Origin: a virus
Taxonomy: Duplodnaviria; Heunggongvirae; Uroviricota; Caudoviricetes
DNA length: 13,104 bases
Reading direction: 5' to 3' (one strand)
IMG/VR virus record: IMGVR_UViG_645058835_000001
Location: 1-13,104 of that record
Position 1 is the stretch's first letter. Each line of letters starts with the position of its first letter. The notes beneath the pieces were generated by a model, which did not search any database, was not told the DNA's origin, and worked only from the letters and a program-made list of their open reading frames with translations. Made by a program: the position numbers and the translations under genes. Below, piece by piece: positions 11,615-13,104 of the stretch.

Positions 11615-11946
11615 AAAATAAGCCCGCAACAATTAAAATGCTGACACCCACTACTACTATATGATTAGTTTTTATACATACAGTATGTTCAAGAGTGAAA
11701 AGCCGCCTCTCGTTATCAAAATTTTAACATCCTGCGTGTTTTGTACAAGCAAGAACAGTCACTATCTTTCAAATATTCTAAAAAATCACCTTTACACCAT
11801 CTAAGACGATAAGAAAATGTGTGAAGTCTATCATCCAAGTCTCAATCGATCGATACTTGCGTTAGTTGATGAGAAAAAACTCTGGCACACAAGGCTTTGC
11901 AATGGCTTGCAAGGTTTTGTTTCTATCAGATAGTGGTTAAGGTGGA

Positions 11947-13104
11947 TCACTCCACCTTTTCATCAAGCCAGTCCGCCCACCACTGCATCATTTCTCTGCG
12001 CTTATCGAGATACTGAGCATGGTTGTAAATCCCGCGCACAGATCCGCCGTTGGCATGTGCCAGTTGCACTTCAATAGCGTCAGCAGGCCATTCGTGCTCG
12101 TTCATAATTGTGCTGAATTCATGCCTGAATCCGTGACCGCTTTCCAGACCCTCATAGCCGATTTGTTTGATCACAAGTAGCACCGCGTTCTCGCAAATTG
12201 GCTTCTTCTTATCGTTGCGCCCGGCAAAAACAAACTCTGATACTGGTTTAGTGATTGAGCTTAGTGTAGTGAGAAGTTCAACTACCTGGTCTGACATAGG
12301 AACCACATGAATTTTGCGTCCCTTCATCACACTGGCGTCGATGGTGATAATCCTGTTTTCAAAATCGACGTTCTTCCATTGCATGGAACGAAGCTCTTTC
12401 GTTCTTAGGGCTGTGTAGCGTAAAACTTTGGTCGCAATGAGCGATACGATGCTTCCTGAAAATGTTGCAAGTGCTTTGTTGAATGCAGGGATCTGGTCTG
12501 CAGGAAGAAACGGGAAGTTCTTCTTGCGGTATCCCTTCATGGCGTCAGCAAGGTCAGGTGCCGGGTTATATTTAGCCCTACCAGTGACAATAGCGTAACG
12601 GAAAACCTCGCCGCATCTTCTGCGTGCTTTGTTGGCTCGCTCCATTGCACCGCGATCTTCAAATCTGCGGATTACTTCAAGAAGTTGCATCGGCTCAATA
12701 TCCTGAATTTCAAGGCCGCCGATGATGGGTAAAATGTCGTCATCAAACATTTTTGCAAGTTCAGTCGCATAGCCTACTGACCAGACTTGCTTCTTGTGCT
12801 CGTACCATTCCTTGTAAATGGCGCTAAAGGAATTGTTGTTAGACGAAGCCTTTTTCGCTTTTACCGGATCGATGCCAACCGAGATGTCTTTCCTCGCGGT
12901 CCATGCTTTATCCCTTGCCTCCTGCAAAGTCATAAGCGGATATTTTCCGACGGTCAGGATTTTCTCCTTACCGTCAATCTTGTAGCGAAGCTGCCATACC
13001 TTTTTCCCTGACACAGGGACATAAAGGTACAGGCCATTACCATCGAGAAGGCGGTATGGTTTTTCTTTCGGCTTTGCTGCTTCAATCTGCTTAACGGTGA
13101 GCAT
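11947..13104 (-). CDS. int: Tyrosine site-specific integrase, P4/IntS-type
   Basis: 385 aa. The N-terminal arm domain (MLTVKQIEAAKPKEKPYRLLDGNGLYLYVPVSGKKVWQLRYKIDGKEKILTVGKYP) is typical of P4-family integrases; the catalytic region carries HGFRHEFST and VRGIYNHAQY (His-x-x-Arg, Tyr). The ATG sits at the window edge. Confidence 0.9.
   Translation of the reverse strand: MLTVKQIEAAKPKEKPYRLLDGNGLYLYVPVSGKKVWQLRYKIDGKEKILTVGKYPLMTLQEARDKAWTARKDISVGIDPVKAKKASSNNNSFSAIYKEWYEHKKQVWSVGYATELAKMFDDDILPIIGGLEIQDIEPMQLLEVIRRFEDRGAMERANKARRRCGEVFRYAIVTGRAKYNPAPDLADAMKGYRKKNFPFLPADQIPAFNKALATFSGSIVSLIATKVLRYTALRTKELRSMQWKNVDFENRIITIDASVMKGRKIHVVPMSDQVVELLTTLSSITKPVSEFVFAGRNDKKKPICENAVLLVIKQIGYEGLESGHGFRHEFSTIMNEHEWPADAIEVQLAHANGGSVRGIYNHAQYLDKRREMMQWWADWLDEKVE

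What the first reader, a model, noticed from the sequence alone, without database searches (positions are those of the whole stretch)
11633..11961. Non-coding spacer between conversion gene and int 3' end: candidate attP/att region, with a hairpin overlapping the int stop codon
Seen: ~310 bp of non-coding DNA with an 8-bp perfect inverted repeat AAGGTGGA-tcac-TCCACCTT (11938-11957) overlapping the int TGA, followed by TTTTC. Established knowledge: in P22-like phages attP lies between the conversion genes and the 3' end of int, whereas P4/IntS-type integrases usually have their att site at the int 5' side next to a tRNA, which here would lie beyond position 13104. Inference: the window cannot distinguish a phage-form junction from a prophage interior. 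No tRNA 3'-end fragment was recognised in this spacer.
Basis: partly seen in the sequence, partly recalled or inferred. Interest (0 to 1): 0.4.

Follow-up and report, generated by a model that had tools for sequence, protein, structure and literature searches.

The report
Int–cargo spacer, not an attachment site
This 314-base gap inside a decayed HK620-like prophage is not where the phage recombines with the chromosome (that site lies about 160 bases past the window's end, at the argW tRNA gene); it is an ordinary gap between two genes that most likely stops integrase transcription and starts transcription of an O-antigen gene.

Summary
There is a 314-bp non-coding gap (11633-11946).

The attP reading is refuted. 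The window is a decayed HK620-like prophage at argW. The 16-bp IntS core ATGGTGTCCCCTGCAG is absent from the window. It sits 160 bp upstream of the int ATG, just past position 13104, overlapping the argW 3' end. A second argW-derived copy lies about 1.7 kb left of the window start, so the spacer is interior. No IntS arm-type sites lie in the spacer.

The spacer is a mosaic of four pieces:
- the stop-codon hairpin;
- a palindromic hairpin (11889-11920) that HK620 annotates as a terminator, with homologues in lambda, 434, P22/L and Sf phages;
- a 47-bp homologue of the mapped P22 gtr core promoter (11822-11868), lacking the phase-variation sites;
- an HK620-specific leader (11633-11821) in front of a Wzy-like gene.

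The region is already known and of low interest.

The parts
11947..13104 (-). intS-type tyrosine integrase gene (385 aa); the window ends exactly at its ATG
   Evidence: ORF. Pfam Phage_integrase, Phage_int_M and Arm-DNA-bind_3. 95-97% DNA identity to the int genes of HK620, Sf6, CUS-3 and others. Annotated as intS in E. coli genomes.
11939..11958 (.). Perfect 8-bp hairpin with the int TGA (11949-11947) in its 4-nt loop. The 5' arm in int-sense codes for K-V-E. No U-tract follows in int-sense. On the + strand it is followed by (UU)UUC, which comes from the int codons for E-K.
   Evidence: Among 72 IntS loci, 23 carry the identical form and most keep at least 7 of 8 pairs. It erodes to 4-6 pairs in others, and is lost where the cargo junction sits at the stop codon. 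No compensatory changes are possible because one arm is coding.
11889..11920 (.). Conserved palindromic hairpin (ACAAGGCTTTGCAA-TGGC-TTGCAAGGTTTTGT), the element HK620 annotates as a terminator. The A6 run at 11874-11879 gives a U6 tract 9 nt after the stem in int-sense. On the + strand it is followed by UUUCUAUC.
   Evidence: The HK620 feature 38289..23 maps here. Folding gives -17.1 kcal/mol on the + strand with G.U pairs, against -10.1 in int-sense. Homologues occur in lambda 27469-27514, 434, P22/L, SfII/SfV and many IntS prophages. Across 44 distinct variants 86% of cells pair, 6 pairs change on both sides, and 16 doubly changed cells compare with 6.6 in shuffles (0 of 500 shuffles reach this).
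11822..11868 (-). Homologue of the gtr-operon core promoter. It has a GATC at 11848-11851 (equivalent to P22 GATC4), an extended -10 TGaTAGACT at 11833-11825, and a predicted start near 11818. It includes the near-palindrome 11836-11859.
   Evidence: About 84% identical to the segment just upstream of gtrA in SfII, SfV, SfI, SfIV and SfX, and present in the K-12 intS-yfdG spacer. It aligns with the phage L/P22 gtr promoter with the same 33-bp spacing from GATC to the start. In K-12 the distance from predicted start to ATG is the same 25 bp as in P22. P22 mapping comes from PMC2909390. Function here is inferred by homology; the consensus scan finds no -35/-10 pair.
11633..11821 (-). HK620-specific AT-rich segment, the presumed 5' leader (or own promoter region) of the Wzy-like gene. 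Homology to gtr-type loci stops at 11822/11821, which is 3-4 bp upstream of the predicted transcription start.
   Evidence: 98.4% identical to HK620 across 10300-11897 and absent from other IntS phages. No Rfam family matches.
10388..11632 (-). Lysogenic-conversion-type cargo gene encoding a Wzy-like oligosaccharide repeat-unit polymerase. The start codon is uncertain: TTG 11632, ATG 11614, 11575 or 11497.
   Evidence: TIGR04370 at 116 bits against a cut-off of 40. Pfam O_anti_polymase is below its cut-off. HK620 annotates it as 'O-antigen modification protein' and RefSeq as 'O-antigen polymerase'.
10349..10375 (.). Strong 12-bp hairpin between the converging tailspike and cargo genes (HK620 tR')

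Best explanation
The spacer is an interior intergenic junction of a decayed HK620-like (P22-like, IntS-type) prophage integrated at argW. It is not an attachment site. IntS recombines at a 16-bp core (ATGGTGTCCCCTGCAG) that lies 160 bp upstream of the int ATG, just outside the window and overlapping the argW 3' end. The IntS arm-type sites lie next to that core.

Read in the int direction (window minus strand), the spacer has four parts:
1. The last int codons and stop codon sit inside a small hairpin.
2. A conserved palindromic hairpin with flanking A/U runs most likely acts as a transcription terminator or insulator, possibly in both directions, between int and the cargo.
3. A 47-bp copy of the gtr-operon core promoter lacks the upstream OxyR/Dam sites, so it should be constitutive rather than phase-variable.
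4. Starting 3-4 bp before the predicted transcription start, an HK620-specific leader runs into a Wzy-like O-antigen gene that replaced gtrABC.

What is shown: the position of att, the homologies, and the conservation of the hairpin.
What is inferred: terminator activity, promoter activity and the transcription start.
For: Source and context. The window matches the E. coli 357900 chromosome with int followed by tRNA-Arg. It differs by a 1-bp indel at window 1194, with the nearest other difference at 11086.

Position of att.
- The core in HK620 is annotated 160 bp upstream of int.
- The same 16-mer is at the argW junction, and a second argW-derived copy lies 15 kb to the left. The same pattern holds in strain PK8568, next to torI.
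- The window has zero matches.
- The arm-type GGGTAAAA repeats are absent from the spacer and clustered just past position 13104.
- The literature places attP of KplE1, HK620, Sf6 and Kapi1 between int and xis, with the same core (PMC2951348, PMC8787464).
- A sibling prophage carries the same cargo, the same spacer and an 84-bp IntS remnant, but it is integrated at att-lambda, with the lambda core 209 bp further on.

Hairpin. It is annotated as a terminator independently in HK620, SfII and phage L and is conserved with compensatory changes.

Promoter. It aligns with the mapped P22 gtr promoter and keeps the same spacings.
Against: - Neither hairpin meets a strict intrinsic-terminator pattern on either strand in this window or in K-12.
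- In int-sense the U6 tract is 9 nt from the stem, and three stem positions are C.A mismatches in this allele.
- No sigma-70 -35/-10 pair is detected on the minus strand.
- The promoter assignment rests on about 60% identity to P22/L over 44 bp, plus conserved motifs and spacing.
- No transcript data were available.
Confidence: 0.8

Rival explanations
1. The spacer is, or contains, the functional attachment site (attP/attL/attR) used by this integrase, as in P22, where attP lies between the conversion genes and the int 3' end.
For: Positional analogy with P22, L, SfII and SfV, where the thrW core lies 14 bp from the int stop. Positions 11822-11918 are homologous to DNA beside that attP.
Against: - There is no argW or thrW core in the window at up to 3 mismatches.
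- There are no IntS arm-type sites in the spacer.
- The real core pair brackets the element.
- The HK620 annotation and experiments place attP between int and xis.
Confidence: 0.02
2. The conserved parts of the spacer are only an evolutionary fossil. They would be left-over flank of a P22/SfV-type attP-gtr region, kept after an IntS integration module and later a Wzy-like gene were swapped in, and they would have no present function.
For: - Breakpoints in relatives are staggered at 11822, 11868, 11872, 11886, 11910, 11937 and 11949-11961.
- The stop-codon hairpin erodes freely in relatives.
- This allele of the large hairpin carries three C.A mismatches in int-sense.
- IntS 3' remnants persist as junk in 434 and in the E9 prophage.
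Against: - The large hairpin is kept in lambda, 434, P22/L, Sf and IntS phages despite unrelated flanks, with changes on both sides of pairs above the shuffle controls.
- The promoter motifs and spacings are kept exactly.
Confidence: 0.13
3. A small + strand RNA (antisense to the int/cargo read-through) starts at the promoter-like site 11791-11818 and ends at the + strand hairpins (11889-11920, then 11939-11958 followed by UUUUC).
For: - TTTACA-16-GAAAAT is present on the + strand.
- Both hairpins fold better on the + strand in this allele (-17.1 and -13.2 kcal/mol).
- The phage L annotators place the homologous terminator on the + strand.
Against: - The promoter-like hit is one of 8 found where 10.4 are expected by chance.
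- It lies in the HK620-specific part and is not conserved with the hairpin in other contexts.
- No Rfam family matches.
- In most IntS loci the + strand hairpin has no U-tract.
Confidence: 0.04
4. The stop-codon hairpin, alone or with the long-range pairing 11866-11875/11957-11966 that closes the whole 100-nt region, is a post-transcriptional control element for int, acting on mRNA 3' stability or processing in the manner of lambda sib.
For: - The 106-nt region folds well above shuffles on both strands (z -3.5 and -3.95), and likewise in K-12 in int-sense (z -3.3).
- The hairpin is kept with at least 7 of 8 pairs in most IntS loci.
Against: - The outer stem exists in only 19 of 74 sequences tabulated (72 IMG/VR IntS loci plus K-12 and the window), those that carry the promoter module. 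It shows no covariation with the GAA/GAG codon variants.
- One arm of each is coding sequence, so conservation is expected anyway.
- Att does not separate this region from int, so lambda-style retroregulation cannot operate.
Confidence: 0.1

Closest known systems
Coliphage HK620 int / O-antigen-modification gene intergenic region (GenBank AF335538, positions 38015-38297 and 1-49)
   Same: 98.4% identical over the cargo gene and spacer. It has the same int type, the same hairpin annotated as a terminator, the same Wzy-like gene and the same tailspike neighbourhood.
   Different: Here it sits in a decayed chromosomal prophage with pseudogenised ERF and DnaB-like genes, foreign SIR2 and RCR genes and no torI. 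There are a few base differences; for example, the HK620 stop hairpin has one G.T/A.C position.
KplE1 (CPS-53) / HK620 / Sf6 / Kapi1 recombination module (IntS, TorI, attL/attR at argW)
   Same: The integrase is 99-100% identical in protein sequence. The 16-bp core and clustered arm-type sites lie upstream of int, overlapping the int promoter region. argW is intact next to int.
   Different: That module lies outside the finding's coordinates. The spacer is on the opposite (3') side of int and shares none of the module's sites.
P22 / L / SfII / SfV attP-gtr region (thrW attP between the int 3' end and gtrA; Dam/OxyR phase-variable gtr promoter)
   Same: The gene order is the same (int, spacer, conversion gene, all on one strand). 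The hairpin is homologous, and so is the core promoter, with its GATC4, extended -10 and spacings.
   Different: There is no thrW core. The integrase belongs to a different family. GATC1-3 and the OxyR(A,B) sites are missing, with only two GATCs in the spacer. gtrABC has been replaced by a Wzy-like gene with its own roughly 190-bp leader.
Phage lambda region left of tI/sib (27469-27514), and the equivalent in phage 434
   Same: The palindromic hairpin CACAAAGCTTTGCA...TGCGAGGCTTTGTG is homologous and lies at the boundary between accessory genes and the att-int module.
   Different: In lambda and 434 it is separated from int by tI/sib and attP. Here it follows the int stop codon directly, so integration cannot uncouple it from int.

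Membership tests
IntS-type att site (KplE1/HK620/Sf6) | 16-bp core identical to the argW 3' end (ATGGTGTCCCCTGCAG) | tested here: not met
   There are 0 matches in the window at up to 3 mismatches. The exact core is at the argW junction 160 bp beyond the int ATG in the source genome.
IntS-type att site (KplE1/HK620/Sf6) | Clustered arm-type integrase sites (GGGTAAAA-type repeats) flanking the core | tested here: not met
   There are none in 11633-11961. Three are clustered at L006 19104-19148, immediately past the window end.
IntS-type att site (KplE1/HK620/Sf6) | Lies between int (5' side) and xis/torI in the phage form; copies of the core bracket the prophage | tested here: not met
   The spacer is at the int 3' side. 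The core pairs are at L006 4260-4275 and 19264-19279, and at L005 24426-24441 and 33895-33910 next to torI.
P22/SfV-type attP (thrW) | 46-bp core identical to the thrW 3' end, next to the int stop codon | tested here: not met
   It is present in SfII and SfV 14 bp from the int stop and absent from the window.
P22/SfV-type attP (thrW) | P22-family integrase | tested here: not met
   The integrase is IntS type with Arm-DNA-bind_3. It is 95-97% identical in DNA to the HK620 and Sf6 int genes, and there is no DNA match to the SfII or P22 int genes.
Rho-independent terminator | G+C-rich stem-loop immediately followed by a U-tract | tested here: inconclusive
   The scan finds none in the spacer, either here or in K-12. 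The hairpin 11889-11920 has U6 placed 9 nt downstream in int-sense and a U-rich tail on the + strand. The P22/L homologue has UUUUU right after the stem on the + strand. Three sets of annotators call it a terminator, on differing strands.
gtr operon promoter (P22 type, Broadbent et al. 2010) | Core promoter: GATC4 33 bp upstream of the start, an extended -10, and activity without upstream sites | tested here: met
   This is a sequence-level result only. GATC is at 11851-11848 and TGaTAGACT at 11833-11825, with the predicted start at 11818, 33 bp from the G of GATC. In K-12 the distance from predicted start to the gtrA ATG is 25 bp, as in P22. Activity was not tested.
gtr operon promoter (P22 type, Broadbent et al. 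2010) | Four GATC sites in two pairs overlapped by OxyR half-sites A-C (phase variation) | tested here: not met
   There are only two GATCs in the spacer (11848 and 11945), and the region homologous to GATC1-3 is missing.
Lambda sib-type retroregulation | An RNase III-sensitive structure downstream of int that integration separates from int, because att lies between them | tested here: not met
   No att site lies between int and the hairpins. RNase III sensitivity is not testable with these tools.

The most novel reading that the evidence does not exclude
The palindromic TTGC-N6-TTGC hairpin (11889-11920) may be a dedicated element that is widely shared among lambdoid phages and has never been characterised. 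It sits at the boundary between accessory or conversion genes and the att-int module in lambda, 434, P22/L, Sf phages and IntS phages. It could act both as a two-way transcriptional insulator (or an RNA-processing or CII-responsive site) and as the homologous 'linker' through which integration modules and conversion cassettes are exchanged. The recurrent breakpoints and IntS 3' remnants seen here would be its footprints.
Probability: 0.2. Interest if true: 0.4.

Novelty: already known. Interest (0 to 1): 0.12.

Why it matters
It matters little beyond correct annotation.
- It shows that in IntS-type P22-like prophages the int-to-cargo gap should not be taken for att. Prophage boundary calls that stop at the int ATG, as this window and many IMG/VR contigs do, miss the real attL, which is 160 bp further on.
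- The mosaic anatomy is a tidy example of cargo replacement immediately downstream of a retained promoter.
- It also predicts constitutive rather than phase-variable expression of the O-antigen gene in lysogens.

Tried and rejected
- Rfam, at both gathering and permissive thresholds, found nothing real in the spacer.
The same scan of viral contigs was useful only after local BLAST filtering.
- A first fuzzy-regex script timed out.
- I could not decide the working strand of the large hairpin from G.U against C.A patterns. P22-type copies favour int-sense, IntS-type copies favour antisense, and overall 86% against 88% of cells pair.
- I tested whether the long-range stem 11866-11875/11957-11966 covaries with the GAA/GAG codon. 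It does not.
- I considered a CII-dependent promoter, because TTGC-N6-TTGC lies in the hairpin and is annotated as CII sites in the 434 and epsilon34 records. I rejected it because no -10 sits at the spacing used by P_RE as I recall that sequence (my own knowledge, not checked here), and because an antisense-int promoter activated by CII makes no biological sense.
- Small ORFs in the spacer (47 aa or less) were judged not to be coding.

Full report
**1. Observation**

The integrase ORF runs on the minus strand from 13104 (ATG, the last bases of the window) to 11947, and its stop codon TGA is at 11949-11947. The next gene on the same strand ends at 10388. It can start no earlier than TTG 11632, and different annotations start it at ATG 11614, 11575 or 11497. 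So at least 314 bp (11633-11946) carry no ORF longer than 47 aa.

The inverted repeat AAGGTGGA-tcac-TCCACCTT is perfect. The loop holds the complement of the stop codon. It folds at -12.4 kcal/mol (int-sense) and -13.2 kcal/mol (+ strand), with z about -3.7.

A perfect 8-bp repeat with a 3-8-nt loop appears in 3.5% of shuffles of the spacer. The window as a whole holds ten such repeats against 1.6 expected. The hairpin is therefore real and mildly non-random, but not exceptional. ARAGORN finds no tRNA or tRNA fragment in the window.

**2. Where the window comes from**

The whole window matches the chromosome of E. coli strain 357900 over its full length. The two differ by a 1-bp homopolymer indel at window 1194, with the nearest other difference at 11086. 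Positions 6788-13104 are 100% identical in strains PK8568 and SZQ1. From 8067 to the end it is phage HK620: 92.7% identity over the tailspike-to-spacer part, 98.4% over the cargo gene and spacer, and 96.9% over int. In the chromosome, the region left of the tailspike holds pseudogenised ERF and DnaB-like genes plus SIR2-family and rolling-circle replication genes, and no torI/xis. The window is therefore the interior and right end of a decayed prophage.

**3. Where the attachment site really is**

- HK620's own annotation puts the attP core at 1368-1383, 160 bp upstream of the int ATG, between int and the xis-side genes. Arm repeats are annotated at 1207-1253 and 1441-1463.
- In the source chromosome the identical 16-mer ATGGTGTCCCCTGCAG lies at the corresponding place (L006 19264-19279, equivalent to window 13265-13280). 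It overlaps the 3' end of tRNA-Arg(CCU), argW, at 13266-13340 in window-equivalent coordinates. To its left the sequence is phage-like and to its right it is bacterial.
- A second, 23-nt copy of the argW 3' end lies 15 kb to the left (L006 4261-4283), about 1.7 kb before the window start.
- In PK8568 the second exact core sits next to torI.
- The window itself has no match to the core at up to three mismatches.
- The IntS arm-type motif GGGTAAAA is absent from the spacer, while three copies cluster immediately beyond 13104.
- Published work on KplE1, HK620, Sf6 and Kapi1 gives the same 16-17-bp core and states that attP lies between int and xis, so that attL overlaps the int promoter (PMC2951348, PMC8787464).

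One further case points the same way. E. coli strain E9 carries the same cargo gene and spacer (97.3% identity), followed by only the last 84 bp of intS. Its prophage is integrated at att-lambda, and the lambda core GCTTTTTTATACTAA lies 209 bp further on, next to ybhB-bioA. The spacer travels with the cargo whatever the integration system.

**4. What the spacer consists of** (read in the int direction, the window minus strand)

*(a) The stop-codon hairpin.* Its 5' arm is the codons K-V-E. Among 72 IntS loci from IMG/VR, 23 have the identical hairpin and most keep at least 7 of 8 pairs. Others have eroded to 4-6 pairs. Phages whose cargo junction lies at the stop codon (Sf6, VT2phi_272, Kapi1 and others) lack the non-coding arm. 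In int-sense nothing U-rich follows it. On the + strand the 'UUUUC' comes from the E-K codons. I see no evidence for more than conservation by descent.

*(b) The palindromic hairpin at 11889-11920.* This is the feature HK620 annotates as 'terminator for prophage excision transcript' (38289..23). Homologues occur in several places:
- downstream of int in most IntS prophages, including the K-12 intS-yfdG spacer;
- between the thrW attP core and gtrA in SfII, SfV, SfI, SfIV and P22/L, annotated as a minus-strand terminator in SfII and a plus-strand terminator in phage L;
- in lambda at 27469-27514, just left of tI;
- in phage 434, left of tI and attP, together with an 84-bp IntS 3' remnant.

On 44 distinct variants, 86% of cells form standard pairs in int-sense and 88% in antisense. 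Six of 14 pairs change on both sides, and there are 16 doubly changed cells against 6.6 in shuffles (0 of 500 shuffles reach this). Slid controls drop to 20-55% paired. This supports a selected stem, but the strand cannot be decided. In this allele the + strand fold is better (-17.1 against -10.1 kcal/mol) because three positions are G.U on one strand and C.A on the other.

The strict terminator scan does not flag the hairpin on either strand, here or in K-12. In P22/L a U5 tract follows the + strand stem directly. In int-sense a conserved GUCUCAGUUUUGUCUC follows 2-9 nt after the stem. A two-way terminator or insulator is the most economical reading, but it is an inference.

*(c) Positions 11822-11868.* This segment is about 84% identical to the DNA just upstream of gtrA in the Sf phages, and it is present in K-12 upstream of yfdG (gtrA). 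Aligned with phage L/P22, it corresponds to the core of the gtr promoter mapped by Broadbent et al. In P22 the transcription start is 25 bp upstream of the gtrA ATG and 33 bp downstream of GATC4, and the -45..+34 fragment is intrinsically active (PMC2909390).

Here, GATC is at 11851-11848. An extended -10, TG-a-TAGACT (TG-c-TACACT in L), is at 11833-11825. A start at about 11818 lies 33 bp from the G of GATC. In K-12 the same reckoning puts the start 25 bp before the gtrA ATG.

The upstream GATC1-3/OxyR(A,B) region of P22 is missing, and the spacer has only two GATCs. Phase variation is therefore not expected.

*(d) Positions 11633-11821.* Homology to all gtr-type loci stops at 11822/11821, which is 3-4 bp before the predicted start. 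From there on, the sequence is shared only with HK620 and its close prophage relatives. It leads into a Wzy-like oligosaccharide repeat-unit polymerase gene (TIGR04370, 116 bits). The simplest history is that the Wzy-like gene, with about 190 bp of its own upstream DNA, replaced gtrABC just downstream of a retained promoter.

**5. Mechanism proposed**

int is transcribed from its own promoter inside attL (published for KplE1). Its transcript ends in or is insulated by the hairpin region. The gtr-type core promoter then drives the conversion gene in the lysogen through a 186-243-nt leader. Transcription entering from the tailspike side meets the strong hairpin at 10349-10375 and then the + strand hairpins before it can run antisense into int, attL and argW.

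The position of att and the homologies are shown. Termination, promoter activity and the transcription start are inferred.

**6. Rivals**

- A functional att site in the spacer is excluded, for practical purposes.
- A pure fossil without function is possible for the stop hairpin, and less likely for the large hairpin and the promoter.
- A + strand small RNA rests on a promoter-like hit that is not above chance (8 found, 10.4 expected) and is not conserved with the hairpin.
- A sib-like post-transcriptional element is suggested by the good fold of the whole 106-nt region (z -3.3 to -3.95). But the closing stem occurs only where the promoter module is present, and it does not covary with the int codons.

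**7. Comparison with the known, and novelty**

The region is essentially the annotated HK620 sequence, and the recombination module of this phage group has been dissected experimentally. The defining features of an att site were nevertheless tested and not met. The finding is ordinary and is scored low.

The only loose end of wider interest is the hairpin shared across lambdoid phages at the boundary between accessory genes and att-int, whose function has apparently only ever been predicted.

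Noticed in passing
window 1188-1194 (ORFs 1-1230 and 1214-2482): The window has A7 where strain 357900 has A6. This splits the 826-aa 'SIR2 family protein' gene of that strain into two overlapping ORFs. It is either a homopolymer frameshift or a sequencing error in a defence-type gene.
   Followed up: partly
L006 4261-4283 (about 1.7 kb left of window position 1) and L006 4417-8481: The left boundary of the island is a 23-nt copy of the argW 3' end, longer than the 16-bp HK620 core. 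It is followed by a recombinase-family gene, a SIR2 gene and a rolling-circle replication gene. The island therefore looks like a fusion of an HK620-like prophage remnant with another argW-targeting element. No torI/xis is present, so it is probably immobile.
   Followed up: partly
window 11884-12030; L330 1801-1947 (phage 434); L332 5136-5219 (E. coli E9): The last 84 bp of intS plus the hairpin survive as a remnant in phage 434 and in a P22-like prophage at att-lambda. In both cases the remnant lies left of tI and the lambda-type attP, and it ends at window 12030. JEP4 and Gally also match up to 12030. This suggests repeated or inherited replacement of the integration module at one junction.
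   Followed up: partly
L249 170-215 (lambda 27469-27514): Lambda itself carries a homologue of the 11889-11920 hairpin just beyond tI in the b region. NC_001416 has no feature annotated there.
   Followed up: partly
window 11898-11911 (+) and its mirror on the minus strand: The hairpin contains TTGC-N6-TTGC, the CII-binding consensus. The 434 and epsilon34 records annotate the homologous sequence as putative CII sites by consensus only. No suitably spaced -10 was seen.
   Followed up: partly
window 11866-11875 with 11957-11966: A 10-nt, 90% complementary long-range repeat pairs the last int codons (TTGATGAAAA) with the sequence after the U/A run. It encloses both hairpins in one 100-nt structure (z about -3.5 to -4, in K-12 as well). 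No covariation was found.
   Followed up: yes
window 11836-11859: A near-palindrome CAAGTCTCAATCGATCGATACTTG (20 of 24 symmetric by my own position-by-position count; one search reports it as 15-nt overlapping arms, 87% complementary), centred on the GATC, overlaps the predicted -35 region of the gtr-type promoter. It is conserved in Sf phages and K-12. It could be a binding site for a dimeric regulator.
   Followed up: no
L005 23735-24441 (strain PK8568): Next to attR/torI of the PK8568 remnant lies a second, truncated tyrosine recombinase gene, hinting at tandem or successive occupancy of the argW site.
   Followed up: no
IMG/VR loci L250-L329: Many predicted viral contigs begin exactly at the intS ATG, as this window ends there. 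Automated prophage boundaries therefore systematically cut off the 160-bp attL arm and the argW core.
   Followed up: no
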